NCBI RefSeq assembly: GCF_963921235.1
Contig: NC_086097.1
Coordinates: forward strand, 56,112,001-56,176,000
DNA from: Mobula hypostoma
Taxonomy: Eukaryota
Direction: 5' to 3'
DNA: 64,000 nt
Shown: one piece after another, positions 2,999 to 58,312 of the stretch
Layout: every line of letters begins with the position of its first letter
Position numbering within the stretch: position 1 is the stretch's first letter
Made by a program: the position numbers and the translations under genes
Notes under the pieces: model-generated
The model's database searches: none
Told to the model about the DNA's origin: nothing
Seen by the model: only the letters and a program-made list of their open reading frames with translations

Positions 2999-5900
2999 AT
3001 GTGAGCTCACTCACATCGACAGTGATGAAATGCTTTGAGAGGTTGGTCATGACTAGACTGAACTCCTGCAAGGACCTGAACCAATTGCAATTTGCCTATC
3101 GATACAACTGGTCAATGGCAGATGCAATTTCAATGGCACTCCACACGGCTTTAGGCCACCTGGATAACACAAACACTTATGTCAGGATGCTGTTCATCGA
3201 CTGTAGCTCAGAATTTAGTACCATCATTCACACAATCCTGATTGAGAATTTGCAGAACCTGGGCCTCTGTAACTCCCTCTGCAATTGGATCCTCTGCTTC
3301 CTAACCGGAAGACCACAATAGAAACATAGAAACATAGAAAATAGGTGCAGGAGTAGGCCATTCGGCCCTTCGAGCCTGCACCGCCATTTATTATGATCAT
3401 GGCTGATCATCCAACTCAGAACCCCGCCCCAGCCTTCCCTCCATACCCCCTGATCCCCGTAGCCACAAGGGCCATATCTAACTCCCTCTTAAATATAGCC
3501 AATGAACTGGCCTCAACTGTCTCCTGTGGCAGAGAATTCCACAGGTTCACCACTCTCTGTGTGAAGAAGTTTTTCCTAATCTCGGTCCTAAAAGACTTCC
3601 CCTTTATCCTCAAACTGTGACCCCTTGTTCTGGACTTCCCCAACATCGGGAACAATCTTCCTGCATCTAGCCTGTCCAATCCCTTTAGGATTTTATACGT
3701 TTCGATCAGATCCCCCCTCAATCTTCTAAATTCCAATGAGTACAAGCCCAGTTCATCCAGTCTTTCTTCATATGAAAGTCCTGCCATCCCAGGAATCAAT
3801 CTGGTGAACCTTCTTTGTACTCCCTCTATGGCAAGGATGTCTTTCCTCAGATTAGGGGACCAAAACTGCACACAATACTCCAGGTGTGGTCTCACCAAGG
3901 CCTTGTACAACTGCAGTAGTACCTCCCTGCTCCTGTACTCGAATCCTCTCGCTATAAATGCCAGCATACCATTCGCCTTTTTCACCGCCTGCTGTACCTG
4001 CATGCCCACTTTCAATGACTGGTGTAAAATGACACCCAGGTCTCGTTGCACCTCCCCTTTTCCTAATCGGCCACCATTCAGATAATAAAATGTTTTCTTA
4101 TTTTTGCCACCAAAGTGGATAACTTCACATTTATCCACATTAAATTGCATCTGCCATGAATTTGCCCACTCACCCAACCTATCCAAGTCACTCTGCATCC
4201 TCTTAGCATCCTCCTCACAGCTAACACTGCCACCCAGCTTCGTGTCATCCGCAAACTTGGAGATGCTGCATTTAATTCCCTCATCCAAGCCGTTAATATA
4301 TATTGTAAACAACTGGGGTCCCAGCACTGAGCCTTGCGGTACCCCACTGGTCACCACCTGCCATTCTGAAAAGGTCCCATTTATTCCCACTCTTTGCTTC
4401 CTGTCTGCTAACCAATTCTCCATCCACATCAATACCTTACCCCCAATACCATGTGCTTTAAGTTTGCACACTAATCTCCTGTGTGGGACCTTGTCAAAAG
4501 CCTTTTGAAAATCCAAATATACCACATCCACTGGTTCTCCCCTATCCACTCTACTAGTTACATCCTCAAAAAATTCCTATGAGATTCGTCAGACATGATT
4601 TTCCTTTCACAAATCCATGCTGACTTTGTCCGATGATTTCACTGCTTTCCAAATGTGCTGTTATCACATCTTTGATAACTGACTCCAGCAGTTTCCCCAC
4701 CACCGACGTTAGGCTAACCGGTCTATAATTCCCCGGTTTCTCTCTCCCTCCTTTTTTAAAAAGTGGGGTTACATTAGCCACCCTCCAATCCTCAGGAACT
4801 AGTCCAGAATCTAACGAGTTTTGAAAAATTATCACCAATGCATCCACTATTTCTTGGGCTACTTCCTTAAGCACTCTAGGATGCAGACCATCTGGCCCTG
4901 GGGATTTATCTGCCTTCAATCCCTTCAATTTACCTAACACCACTTCCCTACTAACATGTATTTCGCTCAGTTCCTCCATCTCACTGGACCCTCTGTCCCT
5001 TACTATTTCTGGAAGATTATTTATGTCCTCCTTAGTGAAGACAGAACCAAAGTAATTATTCAATTGGTCTGCCATGTCCTTGCTCCCCATAATCAATTCA
5101 CCTGTTTCTGTCTGTAGGGCACCTACATTTGTCTTTACCAGTCTTTTCCTTTTTACATATCCATAAAAGCTTTTACAGTCAGTTTTTATGTTCCCTGCCA
5201 GTTTTCTCTCATAATCTTTTTTCCCCTTCCTAATTAAGCCCTTTGTCCTCCTCTGCTGAACTCTGAATTTCTCCCAGTCCTCAGGTGAGCCACTTTCTCT
5301 GGCTAATTTGTATGCTTCTTCTTTGGAATTGATACTATCCCTAATTTCTCTTGTCAGCCACGGGTGCACTACCTTCCTTGATTTATTCTTTTGCCAAACT
5401 GGGATGAACAATTGTTGTAGTTCACCCATGCAACCTTTAAATGCTTGCCATTGCATATCCACCGTCAATCCTTTAAGTGCCATTTGCCAGTCTATCTTAG
5501 CTAATTCACGTCTCATACCTTCAAAGTTACCCCTCTTTAAGTTCAGAACCTTTGTTTCTGAATTAACTATGTCACTCTCCATCTTAATGAAGCAGATTGG
5601 TGATAACATATCCTCCTTGCTGATGATCAACACTGGCGCACCTCAGGAGTGTGTGCTTAGCCCACCGCTCTACTCTCTATATACACATGACTGTGTGGCT
5701 AGGCATAGCTCAAATACCATCTACAAATTTGCTGATGATACAATCATTGTTAGTAGAATCTCAGGTGGTGACGAGAGGGTGTACAGGAGTGAGGTATACC
5801 AACTAGTGGACTGGTGTCGCAGCGACAACCTGGCACTCAACATCAGTAAGACAAAAGAGCTGATTGTGGACTTCAGGAAGGGTAAGGCAAAGGAACACAT

Positions 5901-6626
5901 ACCAATCCTTATAGAGGGATCAGAAGTGGAGAGAGTGAGCAGTTTCAAGTTCCTGGGTGTCAAGATCTCTGAGGATCTAACCTGGTCCCAACATATCAAT
6001 GTAGTTATAAAGAAAGCAAGACAGCGGCTATACTTCATTAAGAGTTTGAAGAGATTTGGCATGTCAACAAATACACTCAAAAACTTCTATAGATGTACCG
6101 TGGATAGCAATCGGACAGGCTGCATCACTGTCTGGTATGGAGGGGCTATTGTACAGGACTGAAAGAAGCTGCAGAAGGTTGTAAATCTAGTCAGTTCCAT
6201 CTTGGGTACTAGACTACAAAGTACCCAAGACATCTTCAGGGAGCGGTGTCTCGGAAAGGCAGTATCCATTATTCAGAAGCTCCAGCACCCAGGGCATGTC
6301 CTTTTCTCACTGTTACCATCAGGTGGGAGGTACAGAAGCCTGAAGGCACACACTCAGCGATTCATGAACAGCTTCTTCGCCTCTGCCATCTGATTCCTAA
6401 ATGGAAATCGAACCCTTGGACACTACCTCACTTTTTTAAAAATATACAGTATTTCTGAGTTTTGCACATTTTTAAATCTATTCAATATACATATACTGTA
6501 ATTTATTTATTTATTACTATTTTTTTCTCTTCAGTACTATGTATTGCATTGAAATGCTGCTGCTAAGTTAACAAATTTCACGTCACATGCCAGTGATAAT
6601 AAACCTGATTCTGATTCTGATTCTGA
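2999..6626 (+). mobile_element. Rex1/Babar-type LINE, 5'-truncated, RT plus C-terminal region and 3' UTR, interrupted by CR1 at 3320-5592
   Basis: ORF 2980-3321 ([37 protein letters not shown]) continues after the CR1 with GAPQECVLSPPLYSLYT..YKFADD..KKARQRLYF; ends in a (TTCTGA)n tail. Confidence 0.9.
3318..5592 (-). mobile_element. Young CR1 LINE, 5'-truncated (about 2.27 kb), ORF2 RT region with one frameshift near 4576
   Basis: ORFs 4566-5633 and 3416-4549: KSPGPDG, NYRPVSLTS, QHGF, YLDFQKAFDKVPH, GVPQGSVLGP, KFADD, LVRPHLEYC, RTRGH; (TTTCTATG)n tail. Confidence 0.95.
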
Positions 6627-13519: not shown

Positions 13520-14403
13520 TTTGCTCTCTGGGAGACACAGCCCGTGCAGATTGGAAATAACACCTCTTCCTTGCTGACAACCAAGGATGTATGTTTAGTC
13601 TACTGCTCTACTCTCTCTAAACTCATGACTGTGTGGCTAGGTGCAACTCAAAAGTCTCCTACGTATTTGCTGATGACCCAACTGTTGTCAGCAATATCTC
13701 AGATGGTGATGACGAGGCATACTGAAATGAAATAGATCGACTAGTTGAGTGGAGTCGCAACAGCAAGTTTTCAATCAACATCAGGTGGACCATGGAACTG
13801 GTAGTGGACTTCAGGAAGGGGAAATTGGCAGAGCACACAGCAATTCTCATTGAGGGGTCAGTCAGCAGCGGAAGAGGAGAGCAGCTTCAAGTTCCTGGAT
13901 ATCAGCATCCCAGAAGTTCTATCCTGGGCCCAGCATATCAATGCAATTATGAAGAAGGCATGCTAATGACTATATTTCATTAGGAGCTTGAGGAGATTTG
14001 GCATGCCACCAAAAACTCTAGTAAATTTCTACAGATATACTGTGGAGAGCATTCTGATTGGTTGCATCACCGTCTGGTATGAAGACGCCACTGCACAGGA
14101 TTGGAAAATGCTGGAGAGGGTTGTAAACTCAGCAGGCTCCATTATGCATCTTGCATCCCCACCATCGAGGACTTCTTCAAAAGCCAGTGCTTTTCTTCAA
14201 AAGAAGGTGACATCTATCATTGAGGAACTTCAATATCCAGGGCTTGCCCTCTTCTCATTACTACCACAAGGGAGGTGGTACAGGAACCTGAAAGCACATT
14301 CAACATTTTAGAAATAGCTTATTCCCCTCTGCCTGTGTGGTCAATGAACCTATGAACATTACAGACCTTCAATATCCAGGGCATGCCCTCTTCTCATTAC
14401 TAA

Positions 14404-14630
14404 TGTAATTAATGGGTGACAGATGACACTTATTGTTCATAATAGAAACTGTTCCACATAATTCACAAACACCATAATTGAGTTGTTCTGTTCACTTGAA
14501 GAGAGTATCTGGCACAATGATGTCAGTGTAAGTCAACAGCTTTTGGTTTGTTGGTAATGGAAGTAAAGGGCTATGGCTTCTGTTAAGCACATAAAACAAC
14601 ACTTGCACGTTTTAGTCACAAAGTTCTACA
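14404..14630. mobile_element. Copy 2 of the unnamed repeat, putative solo LTR (TG...CA)
   Basis: Interrupts Rex1 cleanly at ttctcatta|ctaccatcaggg; termini TGTA..TACA; flanks ctaa/ctac. Confidence 0.65.
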
Positions 14631-17600
14631 CTACCATCAGGGAGGAGGTACAGGAGCCTGAAGACACACTCAACGTTTTAGAAACAGCTTCTTCCCCTCT
14701 CCCATCAGGTTTCTGAACAGATAATGAACCCATGGACCCATGAACAGTATCTTTCTCTCATTTTGCACAATACATGCATGTATTGTAATTTATAATGATT
14801 TTTATGTATTGTCTTGTACTGCTGCTGAGAAACAACAACTTTTAGAACATATGTCAGTGATAATAAACCTAATTCTGATTCAGATTCTTCTAAGTTGTTT
14901 ACTCCTTTGAAGTCTATTCATTAGAAGGAATGTAAGAGAACTGGAAAAGCAAATAAAAGATGCATTATCTGTGGCTTATCAGATGGTAAAGCAGCCTGGT
15001 AAAGGTATATGCACAGTACCACCCTTTCACAGTTTGGTTTCTGCAATATTGAGACAATTTCAAATGAGAAAGGTTACATTATTGCAAAAGACCCTTATTC
15101 GTCCCCTATTATCACTGAAATGCTGTCTTTATTTCACCAATACCGATAAGCACACCAAATCCAATGAGTAAAGAATTCACAAGCAGCCAAACCCATGTCA
15201 ATAAAACCCAGCAACCTTTCCCCTCAATTTGCTTTCACAATTACTTTTCCTTGAAGTTTATCTGCACACTGAATACAAAACCATCTTGATTTCCTATTAA
15301 AATCCCTCCCACATGTTCACACTTGTAGGTGAATACCAAACAAAATCCAAACATTAAATGTCATTGCCTTTAAATGTCATGCTACAATAGCATTTACTTG
15401 GAATCCAATGACTAGGTGAATTATCTTGTTTCATAGACTAAATAACTGCTGCTATTAATAAAACAGTAGGATTGTTTTGACAAAAAAATTGACAACATTT
15501 TCAAGTTTATCCAGTGATCAACCACTGTTACAGGAAAACAAGAATTCCTTTATAATATCATGACATTAATACTTTGCTTAAATGAGCCAAAATGCAATGG
15601 CCACCTCCAACAAAATGTAAGGAGTCTGAGAAATCAATAAGAATCAGCAACAGATATACACCTTGTTTACCCAAGCACATTATAATTCCACATTTGTAAT
15701 TCTACACACAAGTTACCACAATACCAGTTTCTTTACACAAAAACAGATTTCATTTTATGTACTTTACTGGCAAGACTATCTGAGTAATATCCACCACCAA
15801 ACTAAAAGCAAACTAGCATAATTATGAAATGACACACAATCAATAGAGGGATCCAGCCTTGTGACTACAAAATAGCTTGAAATTGCTGTTTCCGCTTGTA
15901 AGCAGAATGTCAACATTCAAAGATAAATAAGACAATTCCTTGCTATTTTTCATGAAGGACATACTGTACTGAAGATGGTGTAAAGTGAAAAGTAAGCACG
16001 CGTTATATTATGTTTACATTTAGAACACACAGATAGGATTGTTTTTTTAAATCAAAATCAAAAGCACAATAATTTCTTCCCAGTATTCAGTGAGATGAAT
16101 AGCTGTGTTATCTACAATTACAGATGCCTTGTCTGAAAGCCCTGAGGAACTATAGTAATTATCTCATTATTTATAGAAATTACATTGGATATTGATATTT
16201 GAGGTCCAGATTTTGATTCTTTTCATAATGATTTTACTGACAAATGTTGCCAAGAGGAGTTTGGATATCTTTGCTAATTCAGAAGGGGGACTAAAGTTTT
16301 TCTTTACACCTCCAAAGGACATACATTCATAAATGCAAACCCCATTAGTTTGCTGAGAACACAGATGGAGCTAGGAAATATAGACATAAGCGTACCAATA
16401 CCTTCTTCTAATGGTTTGCCTGTGTCACCAAACCAACAGATTTCATTGCATCTAGTGTACTGACTCAGATGAACCGCCAGAGTTAGGTCCTGCATACTCT
16501 ACTATTTGCACATTTACCAGAAAATTGTTTTTCTTTTATTCTAATTCAAGATATATTGTAATTAGGAAACATCACGTTTATGAAGAATTGCCAGGAAGCC
16601 GCTATACGCTAGAAAGTTGCACAAGAGTAAGAGAAGAGGGCAACAAGTTCAGAATTCTGAACTGCGGACATGCCACAGGTCCAATACGCTGCTGATCAGT
16701 CTGACTTTCACACATACTTTTGTAACCTCCAGGTTTAGCAGCACATCTTACAAATTAGTGTATTCTTTTGTTTTAGTTTACATTAAAATGACAATTACCA
16801 CATAAAAGTAATGGTTATGGACTGAAGCAATCCCAACTCAAAAAGTTGTACTGGGCACCATCTAATGAAGCAGTCAATAGCCAACCAAAGAAGCCTTCAA
16901 CCTTCAATCAATTGTAAAGGTGGTTTTTAAGAGTAAACAACCAATCCATATGGCATTCCTTTGAACAGAGAGTCTTGACTTGCAGAAATAAAAGGCAAAT
17001 TATTATTTTAAAATATATTCCTTTAACGTTTTAAATAATTTTCATTTTAATTAATAATTTTTACCTTTTTAAAATGTTATGATTTGTTTCAAACTTCAAT
17101 AAATTTTAAGTACCTCTAATGTCAGGGAACTTAAAAACTCATTTAGCAAAAATCTACACACCCTTAAGCTCTGTCCCTGGGTTTGCCTTCTTTCAAAGCT
17201 TGTCAGTAATGATCCAAAGGTTCTGCCTCTTGTGGTCATCTCCCGATGTCCATCTCTGACATCATTTCAGGCATCAAAGGTGAAGGAACAAATCCAGTGA
17301 GAACATCGAAATGGAGTTAAGATAACGATGCTCCTGGAACAATTTCTAAGTGGTCACTACAACATCATGGCTCAGAGTTTGCAAGTATATTAATATAGTT
17401 CCTGTCATTGTTACTTTGGAATAAACTGGGAAGCAACCGCCAAAGTTTATTGCTGTCCAATTTATTCTGCTCCTGCAACAGAACATTGCTCAAAGAATTA
17501 ATACTATAACTAAGAATCTTCTATTTATCTATCAAATATGAGTCTAAAATAGAATTAAAGCAGGAAAAGGTAAATGGGTTTTTAATAGAGTGATAATTGA

Positions 17601-21345: not shown

Positions 21346-22051
21346 CTGTAGAATTGGTAAACTTTATAATTTTGAGCTTCTGAGTGAACTTTTCAAATAA
21401 TTTATCAGTTGATATACAATGCTTGCTTTAACAAAATTCAAAGAAAAACAATGTAGCGGTGTTTTTCATATCAGTATTTCACAATCTTCATCAGATCCCA
21501 TCTACTGTCAGTGTAGTGCTAGTCTTTACTTTTTCACAATTGCCACTGTGTCTGAGAACAGTGATGAATCTATGATAATCTATTTCAGCCTATCAAACTA
21601 TCTGTTTGCACAGAAAGATATTGTAGAATGGGGAAAACAAATGCATTTTTTGCAACCTTTGTTTAAAATGAACTGTTGACAATACTGTAATATTTGTAAT
21701 GTCTATTCAATACTGCGAATAGCGAATTTCATCAACAAATGTGTTTACAGTAATGCTAATCCTAACCACCTGTTCAAATACAGCAGCAAAAATTTCATCA
21801 TATTTATGAAGCATCAGTGATTTCATTCCAGAAGCTTTGTCTTCCATATGAACAGCTGTTTTGCTGAGTACTTTGCATATAAAGTCTAAGCCAGTTTCTA
21901 ATTGGACTTTATATTCAATATTGGTTACAACTAAATTGATACTTTGAAAGTAAAGAAATACTGCTAGTTATTTATAACTAATCAGGTTACAAAAGTATCT
22001 CAAAACATTTTGTACAATAAATTGCTTTGGGAATCATCACTGTTCTTCAGC

Positions 22052-22968
22052 CAACACATACAAAATGCTGAAGGAACTCAGCAGGCCAGGCAGCATCTAT
22101 GAGAAAGAGTCAACCTTTTGGGCTGACACTCTTCGGCAGGACTGGAGAAAAAAAACTGAGGAGTAGATTTAAAAGGTGGGAGGGGGCGGGAGAGAGCCGC
22201 CGGGGGAGGGATGAAGTAAAGAGCTGGGAAGCTGATTGGTGAAAGAGATAGAAGGCCATGGAAGAAAGAAAAGGGGGGAGGAGCACCAGAGGGAGGAAAT
22301 TAGTGGGGAGGGACGAATGGCCAAGGGAATCATGGAGGGAGGAATCCCTGCAGAAAGAGGAGACTGGGGGGCTGGAGTGAGGTAGAGATGACCTTGGTGG
22401 TAGGGTCCCACTGAAGGAGTCAGAAGTTGCAGAGAATGATATGCTAGATGCAGAGACTCATGGTAATAGGTGAGGACAAGAGGAAAACTATCCCTGTTAA
22501 GGTGGTGGGAAGATGGGGTGAAGGTGGATGTTCAGGAAATGGAGCAGATGTGGGTGAGGACAGCATCAATGGTGGAAGAAAGAAAACCCCATTCTTTGAA
22601 GAAGGAGGACACCTCTGAAGTCCTGGAAAGGAAGGCCTTATCATGGGAACAGATGTGGTGGAGACAAAGGAACTGAGAAAAAGGAATGGCATTTTTATAG
22701 GAGACGGGTAGAAAGAAGTATAGTCAAGATAGTCATGGAAGTCGGCAGGTTTATGAAAGATATATTAATAGGCAGTTTAGGTCTAGAGATACTGAGCTTG
22801 TCAATTTCATCAACTTTGCCTCCAACTTCCACCCTTCCCTTAAATTTATTTAGTCCATATCTGACAACTCTCTCACTCTCCCCTTTCTCAATCTCTCGGT
22901 CTTTACCTCTGGAGACAAACTGTCCACCATTACCTTTTAAAAACCTATCGTCTCCCACTCACCAATGG
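22052..22968. mobile_element. Penelope-like element with inverted arrangement (22052-22790 minus, 22795-22968 plus)
   Basis: Terminal caaaatgctgaaggaactcagcagg motif; minus-strand coding relics; plus-strand ELVNFINFASNFHPSLKF RT C-terminus. Confidence 0.8.
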
Positions 22969-25210: not shown

Positions 25211-25690
25211 TTGTTGTTGTTTAGTCATTAAGTTGAGTCCGATTATTAATGACCTCATGGACTCCTGCACACCAACCCTTCTTGTTGGAAACTGCCCCTC
25301 TAAGATTCCCCAAGGTCATACGCATGGTCTGAGTAATATTGTCTATCTATTGTAGCCTCTGTCGTCCTTTCCTTCTTTTACCTTCTGTTTCACCTAACAT
25401 GAGAGTCTTCTCCAAGGAAACCTGACTTCTCATGATGTGGCCAAAATATTTGAGCTTTTGTCTCATAATCAATCCTCCTAGTGAGCAGTCTGGCTGTTTT
25501 TCTTCAAGTATTGACTTGTTGGATCTTCTTGCTGTCTAACAAACACTTTTCTCCAGCATCCAAGTTCAAAGGCATTGATTCTTTTGTATTCAGCCTTACG
25601 AATAGTCCAGCTCTCTCAGTCATACAACACAACTGGAAATACCATACACTCGACTTCTGTATACGGAATTTTGTATATGGATCTTCATAT
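25211..25690 (-). mobile_element. RTE/BovB-like LINE 3' fragment
   Basis: Minus-strand translation ESWTIRKAEYKRINAFELGCWR..LKYFGHIMR..SLEKTLMLG.TEGKRRKGRQR; (CAA)n tail; TSD atggat at 25205-25210 and 25691-25696. Confidence 0.9.
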
Positions 25691-25969
25691 ATGGATAGTA
25701 CGTTCCAAATACTCCATGGGGCCAAGATCTTCACCAAACTGGATCTATGGAGTTCGTATGACCTGATCCACATTCTCCAGGGGATGAGTGTCAGACAGCG
25801 TTCAAAACACCCACTGGTTACCATAAATACTTGGTGATGCCTTTCAGACTTTCCAACAGTCCAGTCATTTTCCAAGTTTTCATTAATGGGATATGCTACA
25901 CAGGTATGAGTTCATCTATCTCAACGTCATTGCATCTTCTCAAAGAACCCCCTGGACCATGTCGGCCAC

Positions 25970-28565: not shown

Positions 28566-28888
28566 CTCTCCCTTTTCTTTCTTCAATGGCCTTCTGTCCT
28601 CTCTCATCAGATTCCCCCTTCTCCAGCCATGTATTTCTTTCATCAATCTTCCCAGCTCTTTACTTCACCCCTCCCAGTTTCACTTTTCACCTTGTGATTC
28701 TTCCTCCCCTCCCCCCACCTTCTAACTCTGACTGTTCATCTTTCCTTCTCCAGTCCTGCTGAAGGGTCTCAGACCAAAATGTAAACTGTACTCTTTTCTG
28801 TAGATGCTGCCTCATCTGCTGAGTTCCTCCAGCATTTTTGTGTGTTGCTTGGATTTCCAACGTCTGCAGATTTTGTCTTGTTTGTGAC
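28566..28888 (+). mobile_element. Penelope-like 3' terminal region with hammerhead relic
   Basis: Pyrimidine-rich body, cagtcctgctgaagggtctcagaccaaaatgtaaactg, then gctgagttcctccagcatttttgtgtgttgc. Confidence 0.8.
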
Positions 28889-37349: not shown

Positions 37350-38284
37350 GAGCAGCTGGTTACAGCCAGAGTGCAGAATTCAGGGAGTAGATGGGTGAAC
37401 ACCGAGAGAGATAAAGGGAGAAAGAAGGCAGTGCAGGATCCTTCTATGGCCATTCCCATCATCAACAGATACACCCCTTTGTATACTGCTGAGGGGGGTG
37501 ACCTATCTGGGTAAGGCAGCAGCAGCCCAACCAATAGCACTGCGGTTGGCTCTAAGCATCAGAAGGGTAGGGTGAAGTCAGGTGGAGCCAGGGTGAAGTT
37601 GAGGGACTCAATAGTTAGGGGGGGAAAATAGGAGATTCTGCAGCAGCAAAACAGACACCAGTATAGTGTGTTGCCTCCTGGGTGCTAGGCTCCAGAATGT
37701 CTCTGAGCAGTTTCAGAATATTCTTGAAGGGGAGGGTGAGCAGGTGGAGGTCGTGGTAAGTTGGTACCAATGACATAGGTAGGAGAAGGGTAGAGGTCCC
37801 GTGCGGTAAGTTTACGGAGTTAGGAAGGAGACTGAAAAGCTGGGCCTCCGAGGTGGTACCTCCGGATTACTCCTGGTGCCATGAGCTAGTGAAGGTCAGA
37901 ACAGGAAGGTAGCGCAGATGAATGAGTGGCTGAGGAGATGGTGCAGGGGGCAGGGTTCATGTTCTTGGATCATTGGAACCTTCTTGTACAGGGGTGACCT
38001 GTACAAGTGAGATGGGTTGCACCTGAACTGGAGGAGAACCAATATCCTGGGAGGGAGGTTTGCTCATGCTATTGGGGAGGGTTAAAACTAGATTTGCAGG
38101 TGGGTGGGAACTGAAATGAAGAGGCACAGGATGGGGTGGTTGGCGTACAAGTAGAGGCAGCTTGTAGGGAGTTTGTGAGGAAGGATAAGCAGATGATAGA
38201 GCGAAGTTGCACTCAGCCAGATGGGTTGAGATGTGTCTATTTTAATGCAAGCAGTATCATAAATAAGGTGGATGAACTTAGAGA
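37350..38284 (+). mobile_element. CR1 5' part: ORF1 esterase region and start of ORF2
   Basis: VCCLLGARLQNVSEQFQNILEGEGEQ, GTNDIGR, DGLHLNWRRTNILG; ORF2 start [21 protein letters not shown]. Confidence 0.85.
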
Positions 38285-39531
38285 ACATCTCAATGGCTCC
38301 TCACATGGCGTTAGGCCACCTGGACAACACAAACACCTCTGTCAGGATGCTGTTCATCGATCATAGCTCAGCATTTCATACCATCATTCCCACAATCCTG
38401 ATTGAGAAGTTGCAGAACCTGGGCCTCTATCTGCCTCTGCAATTGGATCCTCAACTTCCTAACCGGAAGACCACAATCTGTGCAGGTTGGTGATAATATC
38501 TCCTCTTCGCTGACAATCAACACTGGTGCACTTCAGGGGTGCGTGCTTGGCCCAGTGCTCTACTCTCTATATACACATGACTGTGTGGCTAGGCATAGCT
38601 CAAATACCATCTATAAAGTTGCTGATGATACAACCATTGTTGGTAGAATCTCAGGTGGTGATGAGAAGGTGTACAGGAGTGAGATATGCCAACTAGTGGA
38701 ATGGTGCTGCAGCAACAACCTGGCACTCAATGTCTGTAAGATGAAAGAGCTGATTGTGGACTTCCGGAAGGGTAAGACGAAGGAGCACAAACCAATCCTC
38801 ATAGAGGGATCAGAAGTGGAGAGAGTGAGCAGCTTCAAGTTCCTGGGTGTCAAGATCTCTAAGGATCTAACCTGGTCCCAACATATCAATGCAGTTATAA
38901 TGAAAGCAAGACAGTGGCTATACTTCATTAGGAGTTTGAAGAGATTTGGTATGTCAACAAATACACTCAAAAACTTCTATAGATGTACCGTGGACAGAAT
39001 TCTGACCGGCTGCATCACTGTCTGGTATGGGGGGCGGGGGAGCTACTGCACAGGACTGAAAGAAGCTGCAGAGCTTTGTAAATTTAGTCAGCTCCATCTT
39101 GGGTACTAGCCTACAAAGTACCCAGGACATCTTCAAGGAGCAGTGTCTCAGAAAAGCATCGTCCATTATTAAGGTCCTCCAGGACCCAGGGCATGCCCTT
39201 CTCTCACTATTACCATCAAGTAGGAGGTACAGAAGCCTGAAGGCACACACTCAGCGATTCAGGAACAGCTTCTTCCCCTCTGCCAACTGACTCCTAAATG
39301 GACATTGAACCCTTGGACACTACCTCACTTTTTTAATATATAGTATTTCTGTTTTTTGCACGATTTTTAATCTATTCAATATACGTATACCATAATTGAT
39401 TTACTTATTTATTATTATTATTTTATTTTGTTTTATTCTCTTCTGGATTATGTATTGCATTGAGCTGCTGCTGCTAAGTTAACAAATATCACGTCACATG
39501 CCGGTGATAATAAACCTGATTCTGATTCTGA
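38285..39531 (+). mobile_element. Rex1/Babar LINE, 5'-truncated, same subfamily as 2999-6626
   Basis: ORF 38402-39109 ([31 protein letters not shown]); (TTCTGA)n tail. Confidence 0.92.
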
Positions 39532-39690
39532 ATGTGAAGAAATTGGAAAGATATGGACATTGTGGAGGTGGAGGGATTAATTTAGTTAGCCATTTGATTA
39601 CTAATTTAATTGGCTTAGCAGAACATTGTGGGCCAAAGGACCTGTTGCTGTTGCTGTGCTGTACTCTTCTGTGTCCTATGTTCTAAGTCT
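39532..39690 (+). mobile_element. CR1 3' terminus
   Basis: gatatggacattgtg..acattgtgggccaaaggacctgt..gtgctgtac..ctatgttcta. Confidence 0.75.
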
Positions 39691-40685
39691 AAGCCTGTGG
39701 GTTCTTGGACTGCTGATGAGGCTAATGCAGACTCTATCCTGAGTGGGGTAGATGGCGTTTGATGTAAGAAGGAGTCCCAAGCAACAGTGGGGATTGCAAG
39801 TCTGTGGGAAGGTTAGGAAATGTTAGAGTGGGTAGAGAAGGGAGACATTGATTCAAGAAGTTGGAGGGAGTAGACGTTTTGCCACTGAATCAAGACTTCA
39901 CCCCGTCAGGACAAAGATAATGTGACCATTCTAACCCTCCGGCAATCCACTGAATTCCTTCTGGTATTTAAGGGTAACCATTATTCTCTTATTGTGACAA
40001 CAATCTGGCATGTCAGAGTTGATGCACTCTTAGAACGTCAATGCGACTATACAGCTGAATAACAGAATGTTTGTAAAGTGCGTGAACAAGTTTTAGAAGA
40101 GTTTGCTTAGATACAACTAGTAATCTTACTTTAAATATAATGAGAAATAATTACTGTAAACTGTGCTAATCTTGACATGTTTGAACTAATGTTAACTGTC
40201 AATGATCTTTAAAGCTGTTATAATTGTTTGCTGCTCTATTGACATATTTGTGTAGAGTGAAAGGGGGGAACAAATTTGCAAGCTATTTGATGACCAGTCT
40301 TCCAGTCAATAACGTTGCATACAACAGGGCTGATTTGCTGCAAAGGTAGCAAAAAGCTAAAGTACAGCTAAAATATAAAGTATGAATCAAAATGGAAACT
40401 TTTTTTGTTCCTGTTTGAGCAGGATAGAACTAAGCATACAATGAATGGAAAGAAATGAATAGTTTTGTTGCAGAATGTTCTAAGAATTTACACATTGAAA
40501 AAAGGCTTGCATCTACCACAACTTTTGAATATTTTCAGGTCCTTTACAATAATTTACATTTTTCAGCTGTGTGGCCAGTGTTGCAGCACAAGCAAGCCTT
40601 GAGTTAATTTGAACACATCAAGGCCTGTAAACAACAAACAAAAGGTGACAAGATCATCTGTGTGCACCATGTTGGAAAGAGAAAT

Positions 40686-41214
40686 ATACTCTGTACCTGA
40701 TAAAGTGGCCACTGAGCGTATGTTCGTGGTCTTCTGCTGCTGTAGCCCATCCATTTCAAGGTTTGACAGGTGTGCTCATAGGCGCTCTTCTGAACACAAC
40801 TGGTGTAATGCATTATTATTTCAGATACTGTCGCCTTCCTGTCAGCTTGAACTTGTCTGGCTATTCTCCTCTGACCTCTCATTAACAAGGCAGCTTCACC
40901 CACAAAACTGCTGTTCACTGGATGGTTTTTGCTTTTCACATTACTCTCTGTAAACTCTAGAGACTGCGATGTGTAAAAATCCCAGGAGATCAGCAGTTCC
41001 TCAGATTCTCAAACCACCCTGTCTGGCAATAACAATCACTCCATGGTTCAAAGTCACTTAAATCACATTTCTTCCTTATTCTAATGCTTGGTCTCAAAAA
41101 CAACTGAACCTTTTGACCATAACTACATTGAGCTTCTGCCACATGATTGCATGTACAGCTCTAGATATTTGCATTAATGAGCAGGTGTACCTAATACAGT
41201 GACCACTGAATGTA
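40686..41214 (-). mobile_element. Tc1/mariner non-autonomous deletion derivative
   Basis: ORF 40604-40939 (RGQRRIARQVQADRKATVSEI..TLKWMGYSSRRPR) is a Tc1 DNA-binding region; terminal repeat gtacctaatacagtgaccactgaatgta ending in TA, with a second copy at 40692-40720. Confidence 0.85.
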
Positions 41215-41933
41215 TTTGAGATGATGCTTTTGGAAGCCATTGAGCAATGAATCTTATGAGACTGGAGAACCTTCACCACTCAGAGTATAACTCAGCTTTA
41301 CAATATTGCTTTCTTTTCCAGAATATAGTCAGTTATATAATGAAAATATATAACATACATGACTTCCACAGCTACCTCCGCTATATCTCTCCCAGCTTGC
41401 AACTGCAAGGATGTTTTCGTTAATTTCTCTATCTCCTCAGATGAGGACTTCTATCCTCAGGCCTCTTAATTGTCCTCTTTCATCTGGAAATATAACTTCC
41501 CCTCTGCTATAGTTGAAGCCCTCACACACATTTCTTCCATTCCCTGTAAGTCTGCTCTCAGCCCCTTTTCTGCAGGGAAAACAGCAATACAGTTTGCCTA
41601 GTCCTCATCTTTCACCCATTAGTATCAGCATTCAACACGTCATCCTCTGCCATCTCCAAGATGATCTCACTACTGATCCCATCTTCTCCTCCAGCCCCCT
41701 TTCTGCCTTCCTCAGGGACCTCTCTCGTCATGTCTCCCTAGTCCATTCATCTGTCCTCATCCTCTCCAACTTTAGCTACAACACCTGTTCCCTTTAACTC
41801 TTTCCTCACCATTATCCAGGTACCTAAATATCCATTCCATAGTGTCACCTGCACCTCTTCCAAACTGTCTATGTTTGGTGCTTACAGTGAGGCCTCCTCT
41901 ATATTGATAAAACCAAGCATAGTTTAGGCAACA

Positions 41934-42363
41934 CACACAAAATGCTGGTAGAACACAGCAGACCAGGCAGCATCTATAGGAAGAGGTACAGTCAACATTT
42001 TGGGCTGAGACCCTTGGTCGGGACTAACTGAAAGAAGAGATAGTAAGAGATTTGAAAGAAGGAGGGGGAGGGGAGATCCAAAATGGTAGGAGAAGACAGG
42101 AGAGGGAGGGATGAAGCTAAGAGCTGGGAAGTTGATTGGCTAAAGGGAAACAAAGCTAGAGACATGGAAGAAAGGGGGAGGGGAGCAGCAGAGGAAGATG
42201 GAGAGCAGGCAAGGAGTGATGGTGAGAGGGAAAGAGAGCAAGAAATAAGGGGGGAATAATAAATGAATGAATAAATAAAATAGGGGATTGGGTAAGAAGG
42301 GGAGGAGGGGCATTAGCGGAAGTCAGAGAAATCAATGTTCATGCCATCTGGTTGGAGGCTACC
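41934..42363 (-). mobile_element. Younger Penelope-like terminal fragment with 16-bp TSD
   Basis: catagtttaggcaaca at 41918-41933 and 42364-42379. Confidence 0.9.
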
Positions 42364-42584
42364 CATAGTTTAGGCAACAGTTTTACAGAGTTCAAAGCTC
42401 AAAGTAAATCTATTATCAAGTACATATATGTCACCATATATGACCCCAAGAATTCATTTTTTTGTGGGCATACTGAATAAATCCATAATAAAATAATAAC
42501 CATAATAGAGTAAATGAAAGACTGCAGAAAACCTGAGTGTTCGACCAGCATGCAAAAGACAACACATTGTGCAAATACAAAAAG

Positions 42585-44279: not shown

Positions 44280-47200
44280 AGATGTTCTAGGGTTAAGTGA
44301 AGAGCCGATGAGGTGGCATCTGCTGTGGACCTGTTGCTCTGGTAGGCAAATTAGAACAGATCCACTTCTCAGGCAGGAGTTAATATGTTTCATCACCAAA
44401 CTCTCAAAACACGTCATCACTGTGGCTATACAGTAAGTGTTATTGGACAATAGTCATTGAAGGAGGTTACCATGTTCTTCTTAGGACCAGTTTAAGTGAA
44501 GCCTGCTTGAAGCAGGTAGGTATCTCACACTGCTGAAGCACCAGGTTAAAGATCTCAGTGAGCACGCCAGCCAGATGATCAGCACAACTCCTTAGTACTT
44601 GGCCAGCTACCTTATTTGGGCCAGATGCTTTTCGTGGGTTTACCCTCCTGAAGGCTGCACACACATCAGCCTCAGAGACTGAAGTCACAGGATCATCGGG
44701 GGCTGTGGGAGTTTGTGATGGTTCCTCCATGTCTTGAATGTCATTGCGAGCAGAGAAAGCACTGAGCTTATCTGGAAGCAAAAACCCACTGTTGTCTATG
44801 TCGCTGGATTTTACTTTATAACAGGTGGCAGCATTTAAGCTCTGCTTCCTTTATTGATTCAGGTTTAGTCTGGAATTGTCACTTTGCCCATGAGATGGCT
44901 TACTGGAGATCATACCTGGACCTCTTGTAACTTTCTTAATCACCAGACTTGAATGCCTCTGATTGGGCCCTCAGCAGATTGTGGATCTGATGGTTCATCC
45001 AGAGCTTCTGGTTGGAGAAGACTGAATGATTTTGTGGGGACACACTCATCTAGAAGTGTTTTTATAAAGCCTGTGACAACCATGGTGCATTTATTCAGAT
45101 CCACAGATGAGTCCTTGATCATGGTCCAGTCCACCGACTCGAAGGAATCCCATAAGCTGCTCCTCTGCCTCTGGCAACCTTCTCATTGTTGTCCAAATCT
45201 CTGCAGCTTTGCTTTTTAGACTCTGCTTGTATGCAGGTAGGAGAAGGACAGACTTCCTGATCAGGTTTCCTGAAACTTTTTCTGGGGCATGGAACAGTAG
45301 GCATTCCTTTATCTTAGTATGACAGGAGACTAGTGCATTTGGCCTTTGGTGCTATAGATTATGCGCTGATGGCAATTGGGCAGGGATTTCTTCAGACAAG
45401 CCTAGATAAGGTCCCTGACTATGATTTGGAATGTGGCGGGATGGACTGCTTCTTATTTGGAGGTTGCATTTTGCAGTATCTCGAGCACTTGATTTTAGTC
45501 AGCCATTGGTAGTATGTAAACTCTGATGTGTTAATAGGACAGAGTACCTGCACTCTGTCTACAATGAACATCTCAAGCTCTCCGTTGCAAGTCATTTCAA
45601 TGCCCCTTCCCACTGCCTCAGCTTTCTTGTCTTCCTTGTCTGTCCTCAGCTTTCTTCATTGCTACAAAAAGGCTAAACATAAGTTGGAAGAATAGTAGCT
45701 CATATTCTGGTTGAGTAGATATAACATAACAGTATAAACATTGAACTTTTCACTTTCAGGAACCCACATCCCAGCCGTTCTCCCATAATGACTGTTCTCC
45801 CTAGGTTTCTTCACTTCTCCCATCCCTCACACCATTATATACTGGCAACTCTGCTTCTTTCCTCTCAGGCCTGCTGCAGGATCTCAGCTCAATATGCCAA
45901 TTTACAATTTCTCCCTCCACCAATGTTACTCGACCTGCTGAGTTCTCCGAGTGTGTTTGCACCACATTCCAGAATCTGTAGTCTCCTTTGTCTTCGTACA
46001 ATAAAATATACATGTCTTTAGCTGCACTTTATATGCAAATATTATGTCTGAATGGAAGGTCAACAATGCAAAGATGCTATTATTAATTTAATTGCTCCGT
46101 TGAGTCTAGTTCATGTAATACAAACACTTACGTGTAAGAGAAATCTTTAATTCCACCATAACAGCTTTCCTTGTTAACCTGGATACCACAATGAATCTGA
46201 AACATACTAGATCATTGGCATCTAGAACAGCTGTAAGACCTGTATCCCAGCTGTACCCCAGATCGGCACCCAATATGAACCAGCTAAATCTGACATTGGC
46301 CAACCCACAATGAATCCCCCCCACTCAGCACAACCCAGTGGCGTAAAGGATATTGCACTTCTCTTGTACACAAGCCCCCACTTTAGTGAAAAGGCCTCAA
46401 AACGTTGAGGACCCTTCTGCTCATAAATCAAAGCATACGGGTTGCCGAAAGAGGCCAAGCTTAGGCCACCGTCTAGCTGGTGGCAAATGTACCAAGCAGA
46501 TTTCTGACATTCAGTAACACCGCAAACAATTACAAAGTACACTTAAGGGAAAAGTCAAGCCAAAGTGAAGTACTAAAATATTTAAATAACGATAATCAAA
46601 TACTTTTGCTCGTTTAAATTATTCACATTTGTTTTCGAATGAAAATATGGGAAAACTCACTGCATTACGGCCAAACTGCAAGAGAAATTTTTGAGTAGAC
46701 TTCCGACTTTGTGTAGGAGGGTTGACAGAACTCACATTCCACTGCTGCTCTGAAGAATGCAGAATCTGAGAGAGGAATCACTGGCGAACAGTGACAATTG
46801 AAATTCAAGACTTACACTTTCGGACACACATGTGATCATTCGCCATTTGCTTGGGCTTACAGACGGAATTGCCAACTGTTCCCCAAAAGAATTTTGAAAG
46901 GAAACCATTTAAATAACATAAATTCAGTTCACATAATTGCTCCTAATATTTTTCTTTCACCTTAGTCATTCTGGGTTTGCACTTCTGCATCTTTCCATTG
47001 GGTAATACACCCCTTCCACACTCTGGTACAATAAAGCCACCCTCCTACATCAGCACTTACGCGATAAGGTGCCCTATTCTTTCAGTTCAACAGTACCCAT
47101 GTAAAGCATTTTGGCATCTGATTTCCTTTAATCACTCTCACTGAGCTCCACTTTATCGTTAATCAACACCTATTGATGTTTTTGATCCATGCTTTCTAGA

Positions 47201-50083: not shown

Positions 50084-50176
50084 TTCATTTTATTATCAAA
50101 GTATGTAAGCAGAATACAACTCTGAAAACAAACTTCAGAGTTGTATTCTGCATACATACTTTGATAATAAAATGAA
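50084..50176. repeat. Near-perfect inverted repeat: 43-bp arms, 7-nt spacer, 1 mismatch
   Basis: ttcattttattatcaaagtatgtaagcagaatacaactctgaa / ttcagagttgtattctgcatacatactttgataataaaatgaa. Confidence 0.95.
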
Positions 50177-50852: not shown

Positions 50853-51724
50853 ATAATTCACTATTATCCAATGGTCTTTCATTGAAACTCTCTCCATTTT
50901 CCATTTCACTTATTAGATCCTGCACTGCTTCTTTCCTCAGTTGGCTTCCAAATCATTTTTTCCTATTTTGTACAATTTCTCATCCCTAAATGTCCCACCT
51001 TTTTAAACCATCCAGTATACATATGTGTATTAAGAAGTATTAGGCACCTTAAAAGCCAAAACTGCATTTATACCCAATCAACAAATAAAGCACAAGGTTA
51101 ACTAGGGTGCGGATGAAGAACTAGCATTAAAGACATACCCATAAGCACAGGTGCCTGGTGCATTCTCTACACCAAGTCACCGAATCTAAAGATGTGGCTC
51201 AGCTACCTCCACTAACCTCTTTGAGTTGGCTTCATGCTATCACAGATATTCCTTTTGTACTATCTACCTATCTCTTTGCCCACCTTCTCTGCAACCTGAA
51301 AATCCACTTGTTTTTCTCCTTCCCTGCTCTGACGAAGAGTCTTTCACCTGAAGGATTAACTGTTTCTCTTTCCATAGCTGCTGCTGACCAACTTAGCATT
51401 TCCAGTATTAGAGTATTCTCAATTCTTACTATTCTTGTACACAAGCATTTCTTAACTTCTTTGCAAACACATCACCCATTTGCGCACTTCTAAAATAGTA
51501 GAAATAATGAATAATTTCTCTTTGTGATCAGTTACCCTCCATATCTTGAAAACCTTGATTATTCCTTAACCTATGCACCAGGGAAATAACTCTAGGTGAA
51601 GGGCTACTTATATAATATCTGCACTGGGTAAACTGAAAATTATACTGTATAATAAAAAAATTTTCAAAAGCAACACATCTTGTTTAAGAAATCAATTTAT
51701 TAAAAATTGGATACATTTCCCAGG

Positions 51725-52831: not shown

Positions 52832-53051
52832 ATAAACACAAGAAATACTGCAGATGCTAGAAATCCAAAGCAACGCACTCAAAATGCTAGAGTAACTCAG
52901 CATGTCAGGCTGTACCTATGGAAATGAATAAACAGTAGATGTTTCAGGCAAGTCCTGAATAAAGTTCTTGGCCCAAAAAGTCTACTTGGTTATTAATTTT
53001 CATGGAAGCTGCCTGACCTGCTGAGTTCCTCCAGTATTTTGTGTGGGTTGT
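52832..53051. mobile_element. Palindromic Penelope-derived mini-element with 14-bp TSD
   Basis: Inverted arms around gtcctgaataaagttcttggccc; TSD taagtatttaaagt at 52818-52831 and 53052-53065. Confidence 0.85.
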
Positions 53052-53721: not shown

Positions 53722-53862
53722 CAAACAAGAGATGTTGGAAATCCAAGCAACACAAACAAAATGCCATAGAAACTCAGCAGGCCAGGCTTCATCAGGATGA
53801 AGGCCCAATACATCGAATGTTTACTCCTTTCTATAGACGCTGCCTGGCCTGCTGTGTTCCTA
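53722..53862. mobile_element. Palindromic Penelope-derived mini-element, internally deleted
   Basis: aactcagcaggccaggc followed by inverted gcctggcctgctg. Confidence 0.7.
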
Positions 53863-53989
53863 CTTTCAGTGCAGAGTTTGTCGGACTGAGCTGAGCTGGA
53901 GTCCAGCTGGCACCCAGTATCGAATGAAGTGATAACCCTACTTCAAGAGAAATGCAGTAAGTATAGTAATTATTCTGTATATTACACAT

Positions 53990-55859: not shown

Positions 55860-56165
55860 TGATCCTGAAGAAAATTCTCGGCCCGAAACACCAATTGTTT
55901 ATTCTTTTTCATAGATGCTACCTGACCTGCTGGGTTCCTCCAGCATTTTGAATGTATTGCTATAGATAACCTTGGTTCTGATAAAAGTTCAGTAACTTCA
56001 ATGTATCAACTCTGTTTCCCTCCCCATAGAAGCTCCCCAACCTTAAGAGCATTCCTAGCATTTTCGGTTTTATTATCATTGCAGTCTTGTTCAGCTGGAA
56101 ACACTGGCTGAATGACAGAGAATCATTCTGTCCTGGTGAGTTCCTCCAGCATTTTGTGTGTTGTT
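55860..56165 (+). mobile_element. Cluster of three short Penelope-like terminal fragments
   Basis: ttcctccagcatttt-type motif at ~55936, ~56051 and ~56141. Confidence 0.7.
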
Positions 56166-56429
56166 TGGCAGAAAACATAGAGATTCTATGTTACGGGTTC
56201 AAAGACAGAGTCTTTGATCTTCCCAGCACTTAATGAAAACTAACATCAGACAGATAGCAAGGAATTTAACAGCAGAGAACAATATGAAAGTTGATCTATC
56301 TCAGAAAGATGGTACAAAAGGTGGTACGCAGATGAGGAAACCATGTGAGACATCTTGAATGGTCAAACAAGCAAAAAAAAAGCATCGAACACTTCACATG
56401 CTTAAGATACTACAGGTGCCTTTAATCTG

Positions 56430-58312
56430 GAGCAATTCGCACAAAATGCTGGTGGAACTCAACAGGTCAGGCAGCATCTATGGTTAAAAATGAATAGTCA
56501 ACATTTCAGGCCGAAACTCTTCAGCAAGACTGGAAAGGAATAGGGCAGAAGCCTGAATTAAAGGGTGGGGAGGAGAAGCATGAAGGAAGCTGGGTGGCAG
56601 TGTTAGCAGTGAGGAGGATGCTAAGAGGATGCAGGGTGACTTGGATAGGTTGGGTGAGTGGGCAAACTCATGGCAGATGCAATTTAATGTGGATAAATGT
56701 GAAGTTATCCACTTTGGTGGCAAAAATAGGAAAACAGATTATTATCTGAATGGTGGCCGATTAGGAAAAGGGGAGGTGCAACGAGACCTGGGTGTCATTA
56801 TACACCAGTCATTGAAAGTGGGCATGCAGGTACAGCAGGCGGTGAAAAAGGCGAACGGTATGCTGGCATTTATAGCGAGAGGATTCGAGTACAGGAGCAG
56901 GGAGGTACTACTGCAGTTGTACAAGGCCTTGGTGAGACCACACCTGGAGTATTGTGTGCAGTTTTGGTCCCCTAATCTGAGGAAAGACATCTTTGCCATA
57001 GAGGGAGTACAAAGAAGGTTCACCAGATTGATTCCTGGGATGGCAGGTCTTTCATATGAAGAAAGACTGGATGAACTGGGCTTGTACTCGTTGGAATTTA
57101 GAAGATTGAGGGGGGATCTGATTGAAATGTATAAGATCCTAAAGGGATTGGACAGGCTAGATGCGGGAAGATTGTTCCCGATGTTGGGGAGGTCCAGAAC
57201 GAGGGGTCACAGTTTGAGGATAGAGGGGAAGCCTTTTAGGACCGAGATTAGGAAAAACTTCTTCACGCAGAGAGTGGTGAATCTGTGGAATTCTCTGCCA
57301 TAGCAAACTGTTGAGGCCAGTTCATTAGCTATGTTTAAAAGGAAGTTAGATATGGCCCTTGTGGCTACAGGGGTCAGGGGGTATGGAGGGAAGGCTGGAT
57401 TCTGAGTTGGATGATCAGCCATGATCATAATAAATGGCGGTGCAGGCTCGAAGGGCCGAATGGCCTACTCCTGCACCTATTTTCTATGTTTCTATGTTTC
57501 TATGAAAAGGTGATAGATGAATTTAGGTGGGGGGGGGGAGAGAAAAATGGAATGATGAGAGAAGCTGAGAGGTGCAAGGTGGAAGAGGTAATTGGCTGAA
57601 GGAGGAATCTGAGATTGTAGACCATGGAATAAAGAGAAAGAGATGGGGAACCAAAAAGGGAAAGTGGAAGGTGATGGACAATTCATGCAGGTGGAAGAGG
57701 GGAAAAGGAAGGGTTAGAGGCTACAGGGTTAAGGGAAAATGTTTTGGGAGGGTGAACAGAGGGCTGTAAATACCACAAATATTGATGCCATCAGATTGGA
57801 AACTACCAAAACAGAATATGAGGTGTTGCTCCTCCAACTGGCATCAGGCCAAATGTGCTAGTAGACATGCTGTGGACAGACATGTCACTGTGGGAATGGA
57901 AAGTCGAATTAAAATGACTATCAGGAGACCTGGCTGTTGCAATAGATGGAGCAAAGGTGTTCAACAAAGCGACCTCTCAGTCTGCATCAAGTTTCACTGA
58001 TGTTCAGAAGGCTGCACTGGGAGCACTGGATACAATAAATGAATTAATGAATTCATATGTGAAGTACTGCCTCACCTGGAAGGACTGTTTAGGGCCCTGA
58101 ATGGCAGTAAAGGAGGTGGAATAGGGGCAGGTGTAACACTTTGCTCAGTTGCAGGGTTAAGTGCCTGGACAGAGACTGGTGGGGAGCAGGGGAGATGGAG
58201 TGAAGATAGATGTGCGGGAAATGGAGCTGATGCAGGTGCAAGCTGCATTGATAGCAGTGGAGGAGGTAATATCAGCATTTTTCTGAAAAAAAGAGGACAT
58301 CTTGGATGTCAG
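56430..58312 (-). mobile_element. Penelope-like element (GIY-YIG region and 3' end) interrupted by CR1
   Basis: Minus strand 57945-58105 reads QGPKQSFQVRQYFTYE..IYCIQCSQCSLLNISET*CRLRGRFVEHLCSI. Confidence 0.85.
56586..57504 (+). mobile_element. Young CR1 LINE 3' fragment (0.92 kb), same subfamily as 3318-5592
   Basis: ORF 56629-57303 nearly identical to 3416-4549, with a premature TAG at 57301; (TTTCTATG)n tail; atgaa on both sides. Confidence 0.95.

What the first reader, a model, noticed from the sequence alone, without database searches (positions are those of the whole stretch)
28751..28788. Minimal hammerhead ribozyme relics in Penelope-like termini across the window
Seen: five copies align as stem I / core / stem II / core / triplet / stem I'. 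They are 28751+ cagtc-ctgctga-agggtctcagacc-aaaat-gta-aactg; 55860+ tgatc-ctgaaga-aaattctcggccc-gaaac-acc-aattg; 56495-56532 minus cagtc-ttgctga-agagtttcggcct-gaaat-gtt-gacta; 41989-42026 minus tagtc-ccgacca-agggtctcagccc-aaaat-gtt-gactg; 22107-22144 minus cagtc-ctgccga-agagtgtcagccc-aaaag-gtt-gactc. The inferred consensus is CAGTC-CTGANGA-AGGGTCTCGGCCC-GAAAC-GTH-GACTG. Established: Penelope-like elements carry minimal type-I hammerheads that cleave as dimers. Inference: every copy here has at least one core or stem lesion, several explicable as CpG decay, so they are probably inactive remnants of an active ancestral ribozyme.
Basis: partly seen in the sequence, partly recalled or inferred. 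Interest (0 to 1): 0.7.

Follow-up and report, generated by a model that had tools for sequence, protein, structure and literature searches.

The report
Penelope hammerhead relics, drifting catalytic core
The five motifs are broken copies of the known tiny "hammerhead" RNA motif carried in the end repeats of a Penelope-type jumping gene; three of them share an inherited core change that would likely slow cutting and that the element's lineage likely later reversed, which suggests the motif is kept but need not cut fast.

Summary
Real, mostly known. All five motifs are at the stated places and beyond chance. They are decayed 3' ends of an endonuclease-bearing Penelope-like element (RT plus GIY-YIG ORF of 1,014-1,016 aa; hammerhead in both pLTRs). 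Each window copy has a disabling lesion, so 'relic' holds for them. It does not hold for the family: 7,038 + 39,845 exact intact-core copies exist. Two changes are inherited subfamily states, not decay. One is A6C, in 3 of the 5 copies: 1,310 copies against 327 G/T. The other is G10.1-U11.1 in the youngest wave: 39,845 TG against 1,698 CA. Trees place the young A6 family inside the C6 grade, suggesting reversion (AU p 0.033, 0.129, 0.026; modest). The motif changed 3 of 38 sites between oldest and youngest subfamilies while its flanks changed 33-52%. None of 46 young copies starts or ends at the cut site. Cleavage is untested. The scan already noted this motif family (76 findings, at least 22 genomes) and A6C in this genome; the reversion order and U11.1 sweep were not found in one look-up.

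The parts
28751..28788 (+). Minimal hammerhead relic of the C6 subfamily; added lesions G12A, 11.3 C>A, 1.1 G>A; predicted cut site between 28783 and 28784
28566..28887 (+). PLE 3' fragment (3' UTR, hammerhead, tail), closest to C6 copies
   Evidence: 79-81% to C6 copies L028, L107
22107..22144 (-). Hammerhead relic, C6C7 (CUGCCGA); lesions G12A, 15.2 C>G, 10.2 G>A
22046..22761 (-). PLE fragment: RT-thumb remnant, internal deletion, 3' UTR, hammerhead and tail
   Evidence: tblastn 53% over 135 aa, E 1e-23
22791..22961 (+). Inverted 5'-truncated piece of the same insertion (RT remnant)
41989..42026 (-). Hammerhead relic of the younger A6C7 type; lesions U4C, G8C, G12A
41928..42441 (-). PLE fragment: last about 40 codons of the ORF, 3' UTR, hammerhead, tail
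56495..56532 (-). Hammerhead relic, C6; lesions C3U, 10.2 G>A
56424..58302 (-). Likely one PLE 3' fragment (GIY-YIG remnant 57778-58302, UTR, hammerhead) split by a CR1-like LINE insert at about 56586-57503
   Evidence: the joining is inferred from the coordinates
55860..55897 (+). Hammerhead relic in a stub (55863-55967); U16.1C, G16.2A, stem II broken
52834..53050 (.). Head-to-head pair of PLE ends; hammerhead relic at 52950-52987+
53730..53863 (.). Second head-to-head pair of PLE ends
45864..45956 (+). Strongly decayed PLE end with a C6 hammerhead relic
51328..51410 (+). Strongly decayed PLE end with an A6C7 hammerhead relic

Best explanation
The five motifs are mutated, likely dead copies of the minimal type-I hammerhead in the pLTR of a high-copy Penelope-like retrotransposon, whose source elements kept the motif under selection but likely as a slow, dimer- or protein-dependent cutter. 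Shown: an intact element is pLTR(hammerhead), 138 nt, ATG, ORF (RT, Cys linker, GIY-YIG), 292-nt UTR, pLTR(hammerhead), tail; the two hammerheads are 3,512 nt apart in L282. Genomic copies end 60-75 or 95-110 nt beyond the cut site and none of 46 begins or ends at it. Inferred: the copies were reverse-transcribed from RNA not cut (or re-joined) at this site, starting at two internal sites in the tail, as shown in vitro for the Anolis element. Cutting, through pairing of two ACGU palindromes or with the element's protein, would act on only part of the transcripts: releasing a unit RNA from tandem or read-through transcripts, or removing the RT start site. Shown: the source sequence passed through A6U7, C6(U/C)7, A6C7 and A6C7+U11.1 states. 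Inferred: weakening changes were tolerated, while changes known to kill the core (such as G12A) never became a subfamily state in my samples; the young A6 likely arose by reversion from C6 (about 65%).
For: Two same-strand hammerheads flank the ORF in 8 of 16 long-ORF loci. RVT_1 E 1.7e-5 and GIY-YIG E 5e-4; YIDD and CKRNKCYTC. Exact counts: 7,038 with C11.1, 39,845 with U11.1, 1,698 with G12A. Older flank: A6 3,485, C6 1,310, G/T 327. Young flank: C is the rarest substitution, 17 of the 100 listed, hand count. Random 1 Mb: A97, C11, G5, T2, gap 2 of 117. 16 of 20 long relatives of a C6 copy, picked by 1.3 kb of sequence, carry C6. Hammerhead 3/38 changed against upstream UTR 117/226 and tail 22/66 (p 1e-7 and 0.004). 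The C6-stage majority ORF end has no stop; 70 synonymous to 21 nonsynonymous codons to the young family, against 498:1,251 in decaying copies. Copy ends. PMC4209133, PMC11167929, PMC7151607, PMC3088659.
Against: No cleavage was tested. ViennaRNA never gives the double hammerhead as the best dimer fold (-11.5 to -19.9 against -29 to -34 kcal/mol), and young A6C7 monomers fold into a closed rod (open form p about 0.0007). No two-sided compensatory change was seen, only pair-keeping one-sided ones, so conservation could reflect protein binding or a promoter. Reversion is not rejected on the ORF alone (AU p 0.129), where site patterns are 5 against 6. The upstream UTR is low in complexity and may be misaligned. 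Pfam scores are below the curated cut-offs.
Confidence: 0.8

Rival explanations
1. The motif is kept for something other than cutting (a protein-binding hairpin, RT positioning or a promoter element), and cleavage has been dispensable throughout; A6C and U11.1 are near-neutral drift.
For: A C6 source made an estimated 38,000 copies (19,000-68,000). None of 46 young copies starts or ends at the cut site. Hammerhead mutants did not affect insertion in vitro for the Anolis element (PMC11167929). Naiad PLEs spread without canonical hammerheads (PMC8557442).
Against: All other core letters, the ACGU palindrome and four CpGs stayed fixed through the succession of subfamilies. The C11.1-G12 CpG was fixed as TG, which keeps G12, not as CA; this is a single event. 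A6 probably returned.
Confidence: 0.3
2. C6 was a side lineage, possibly mobilised in trans by coexisting A6 sources, that died out; the young family descends from an A6 source with no reversion.
For: ORF-only AU test does not reject a C6 clade (p 0.129). A6 and C6 copies are intermixed at the base of the group. Long branch to the young family.
Against: The young family sits inside the late C6 group (97/92). AU p 0.033 and 0.026 with UTR columns. C6 was one clade in 0 of 200 bootstrap trees in each of three trees. The C6-stage ORF shows some purifying selection (20:21 against 498:1,251, p 0.008).
Confidence: 0.3
3. A6C is a functional retuning: it removes a competing GACG/CGUC pairing and shifts metal preference towards Mn2+.
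For: Predicted open-hammerhead share 0.30-0.39 for C6 against 0.0007 for A6C7; Mn2+ preference of C6 hammerheads (PMC7151607).
Against: Folding predictions only; the Mn2+ data come from a phage and a gut-metagenome ribozyme; nothing suggests relevant Mn2+ levels in the host.
Confidence: 0.08
4. The copies are an independent non-LTR retrozyme or SINE family.
For: Many copies are short stubs starting near the hammerhead; retrozymes are proposed to derive from pLTRs (bioRxiv 10.64898/2026.07.22.740005).
Against: No tandem arrays of the motif in the window; 3 of the 5 copies run into PLE ORF remnants (one across an insert); lengths form a 5'-truncation series.
Confidence: 0.03

Closest known systems
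Minimal hammerheads (min-HHR) in pLTRs of metazoan Penelope-like elements (Cervera and De la Pena 2014, PMC4209133; parts 1-2 of 4 read)
   Same: Type-I core, one extra base after A9, palindromic 15.2-16.2 with no helix III, present in both pLTRs, mostly single truncated copies, pairs on opposite strands.
   Different: Subfamily-level A6C and G10.1-U11.1. That paper reports a U3-A8 core covariant and calls G10.1-C11.1 highly conserved. No shark or skate names in the 2 supplement files searched (one file not searched). Copy number is far higher: about 400,000 estimated.
PAc (Poseidon, Anolis carolinensis) hammerhead (Frangieh et al. 2024, PMC11167929; parts 1-2 of 4 read)
   Same: Two 3'-end clusters about 35 nt apart (the tail); copies derive from RNA not cut at the hammerhead.
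   Different: Here the ATG and both end clusters lie downstream of the hammerhead, with the clusters before the ATG; the protein has the Cys linker of Neptune/Nematis.
C6 hammerhead of phage Bcep176 (Perreault 2011, PMC3088659, passages; Naghdi 2020, PMC7151607, part 1 of 4)
   Same: A6C in the core; reported as slow in Mg2+ and better in Mn2+.
   Different: A single phage ribozyme there; here a minimal dimer-type motif amplified to tens of thousands of copies; activity unknown.
Neptune/Nematis EN+ PLEs (Craig et al. 2021, PMC8557442, passages)
   Same: C-terminal GIY-YIG, CX2-5CxxC linker, partial tandems, inverted 5'-truncated copies, tail.
   Different: Clade not placed by an RT tree here.

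Membership tests
PLE minimal hammerhead (min-HHR) | Core CUGANGA, GAAA, UH | tested here: met
   Met by the family: 7,038 + 39,845 exact copies. Not met by any of the five window copies.
PLE minimal hammerhead (min-HHR) | Extra base between A9 and 10.1; palindromic 15.2-16.2 | tested here: met
   A in 113 of 117; ACGU is the modal helix III
PLE minimal hammerhead (min-HHR) | G10.1-C11.1 pair | tested here: inconclusive
   Met in older subfamilies; G-U in the youngest
PLE minimal hammerhead (min-HHR) | Located in both pLTRs flanking an RT-EN ORF | tested here: met
   8 of 16 long-ORF loci
PLE minimal hammerhead (min-HHR) | Self-cleavage as dimer or with protein | not testable with these tools
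   Bench assay needed; only contigs were available
EN+ Penelope-like element | Single ORF with RT and C-terminal GIY-YIG | tested here: met
   1,014 and 1,016 aa; RVT_1 E 2e-5, GIY-YIG E 5e-4 and 2e-3, below Pfam cut-offs; YIDD
EN+ Penelope-like element | Partial-tandem pLTRs, inverted 5'-truncated copies, 30-40-nt tail | tested here: met
Neptune/Nematis clades | CX2-5CxxC linker between RT and EN | tested here: met
   CKRNKCYTC at residue 883; definition from PMC8557442
Neptune/Nematis clades | Placement by RT phylogeny with reference PLEs | not tested
   No reference PLE proteins fetched
Non-LTR retrozyme | Tandem repeats of hammerhead-bearing units | tested here: not met
   Dispersed single or head-to-head copies in the window
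Rfam hammerhead families | Covariance-model match | tested here: not met
   No hammerhead hit in the window, nor on an intact copy, so Rfam is blind to this form
C6 (Bcep176-type) hammerhead | Mn2+ preferred over Mg2+ | not testable with these tools
   Sequence feature present; metal dependence needs an assay

The most novel reading that the evidence does not exclude
One continuous retrotransposon lineage left a dated record of ribozyme core evolution in vivo: canonical A6, then a C6 core (slow in Mg2+ in other hammerheads) that still produced tens of thousands of copies, then reversion to A6, then re-weakening by G10.1-U11.1 in the current wave. Selection would hold this hammerhead at low but non-zero activity, and the natural variants give a ready series to test what PLE ribozymes are for.
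Probability: 0.35. Interest if true: 0.6.

Novelty: new variant of a known kind. Interest (0 to 1): 0.36.

Why it matters
What PLE hammerheads do is unresolved (PMC8557442, PMC11167929). The five relics add nothing to that. The family does: it shows which core changes a replicating element tolerated (A6C, G10.1-U11.1) and which it did not fix, and it supplies natural, dated variants whose cleavage rates can be compared with their success in the genome.

Tried and rejected
Rfam gave no hammerhead match for the window or an intact copy; uninformative. RNA evidence: no RNA holder listed on record, and only contigs were available. Laying contigs cannot show ends, strand or level, and gave no row for position 6, so C6 in other organisms was not tested. 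Lunse et al. 2016 was not held; I saw it only as cited in PMC6765202, and it may list such variants. Rejected: A6C as independent decay; U11.1 as CpG decay; retrozyme; dimer formation among window copies (no intact same-strand pair). An idea that C6C7 traps the core in a GCCGA/UCGGC hairpin was not borne out by folding. An idea that early young-flank copies still carried C6 was not supported. One search excluded copies ending before offset 45; one search removed that filter with the same result. Tree rows: 115 of 375 copies had at least 500 nt upstream; 52 of these were used long copies, with young copies thinned by hand. One C6 copy of the oldest subfamily (L281) was counted as an independent change, not with the C6 group. 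The host species was not determined.

Full report
Observation. The five strings are present at the given coordinates and strands. A natural intact copy as probe finds 6 window matches at 10 or fewer mismatches, against 0 in 50 dinucleotide shuffles. A profile of the 3' end finds 14 hits in the window, 8 spanning the hammerhead. Rfam reports no hammerhead in the window or on an intact copy, so it cannot see this form.

The host element. The genome is 3.48 Gb in 200 contigs. I did not determine the species; the repeat resembles shark and ray elements from my recall and from earlier notes. Loci with an intact motif run upstream into an ORF end about 292 nt away. I fetched 16 loci chosen for long open frames. 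In 8 of 16 the ORF is flanked by two same-strand hammerheads 3.4-3.7 kb apart. L280 and L282 encode 1,014 and 1,016 aa with RVT_1 (E 2e-5) and C-terminal GIY-YIG (E 5e-4, 2e-3), both under Pfam's cut-offs, with YIDD and a CKRNKCYTC linker. PMC8557442 (passages) gives that linker for Neptune and Nematis. Upstream repeats of variable length and inverted 5'-truncated copies occur. In L282 the ATG lies 138 nt after the predicted cut of the upstream hammerhead. In the window, the 22107 and 41989 copies run into ORF remnants, and the 56495 copy likely does across a LINE insert.

Structure. Stem I is (C/U)AGUC/GACUG, the core CUGANGA, one extra A, stem II GGGU/GCCC, then GAAA and the palindrome ACGU ending at U16.1, with C17 as cut site. 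This matches the min-HHR of PMC4209133 (parts 1-2 of 4 read), which cut weakly and only as multimers or with an added helix III. The double-hammerhead fold is fully pairable for intact copies but is never the best predicted dimer. Young monomers prefer a closed rod.

Relics versus family. Each window copy has a core or stem lesion, and 18 of 38 differences are of CpG type. The family is not only relics. Exact intact-core counts are 7,038 and 39,845, with reversed controls 0. In 100 evenly spaced 10-kb stretches there are 191 ends; 117 of 125 core-spanning hits were scored, and 23 keep A6 core and all stems, wobble allowed. That extrapolates to about 660,000 ends and 80,000 intact motifs.

A6C is inherited. 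Three of the five copies have C at position 6. With the older flank and CpG decay allowed, A6 numbers 3,485, C6 1,310 and G/T together 327. With the young flank, C is the rarest change, 17 of the 100 listed (hand count). C6 travels with a flank haplotype, and 16 of 20 long relatives of a C6 copy carry it. The random sample has 11 of 117, about 38,000 copies (19,000-68,000). The C6-stage majority ORF end is open, with signs of purifying selection. A6C is known from phage Bcep176 as slow in Mg2+ and Mn2+-preferring (PMC3088659 passages; PMC7151607 part 1). Two searches listed no paper on A6C in a PLE; Lunse 2016 could not be read.

U11.1 is inherited. All 16 long-ORF loci have G10.1-U11.1 at the 3' hammerhead, and 7 of 8 have it in both pLTRs. 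TG outnumbers the mirror decay CA 39,845 to 1,698. In public contigs, C>T at this place makes up 64-68% of depth in runs X1 and X19 but 21-23% in X14 and X18, where G>A is as common (crude weights), which fits a recent sweep.

Order of events. With hammerhead and CpG columns masked, copies form a ladder: A6U7 (mean non-CpG divergence 0.17, then 0.11), C6 (0.09-0.10), A6C7 (0.05), U11.1 (0.016). The young family falls inside the C6 grade in three trees (best support 97/92). AU tests of a C6 clade gave p 0.033, 0.129 (ORF only) and 0.026; these data sets overlap. Site patterns are equivocal (6 against 3; 5 against 6). I put reversion at about 65%. From oldest to youngest majority the motif differs at 3 of 38 sites, the upstream UTR at 117 of 226 and the tail at 22 of 66; the stem changes keep pairing.

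Mechanism. Of 46 young random copies that reach the hammerhead, 21 end at offsets 90-106 and 18 at 125-140 (cut after 30); none ends before 58 and none starts at 31, the nearest being 24, 34 and 35; 11 start between -10 and +5. This fits PMC11167929 (parts 1-2 read): two internal RT starts, uncut template, protein-assisted cleavage. I infer a slow cutter that acts on a minority of transcripts and is kept by selection. The main rival is that it is kept for binding or promoter roles.

Novelty. PLE minimal hammerheads are published. This scan holds 76 notes on the motif in at least 22 genomes and notes A6C in this genome; I reached A6C before those look-ups. One look-up for reversion or U11.1 returned nothing. 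Verdict: known kind with subfamily-level core variants; interest 0.36.

Noticed in passing
window 50084-50176: Near-perfect hairpin, 43-nt arms 98% complementary, A+T-rich; Rfam miRNA hits are below gathering scores and likely generic hairpin matches.
   Followed up: no
window 3318-5642 and 56586-57503: Two young CR1-like LINE pieces (family name recalled), 96-98% identical in inverted orientation; 386- and 358-aa frames in the first.
   Followed up: no
window 5592-6626, 13530-14888, 38265-39537: Fragments of another LINE family ending in (GATTCT)n tails.
   Followed up: no
window 40604-41008 (-) and 25469-25837 (+): Frames resembling a Tc1-type transposase and a Ty3/gypsy RT remnant (recalled motifs).
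   Followed up: no
L283:3951-7340 (-): A 1,130-aa open frame in which a CR1-like RT runs in frame into the PLE ORF, likely a chance fusion by insertion.
   Followed up: no
L158:694 (+), L178:3040 (-), L283:8581 (-): A separate, fairly young PLE family with loop II UCCG and a different tail, on its own long branch.
   Followed up: partly
L150-L249: 11 of 46 young copies start within -10 to +5 of the hammerhead's first base, four at -10; earlier notes report the same in other genomes.
   Followed up: partly
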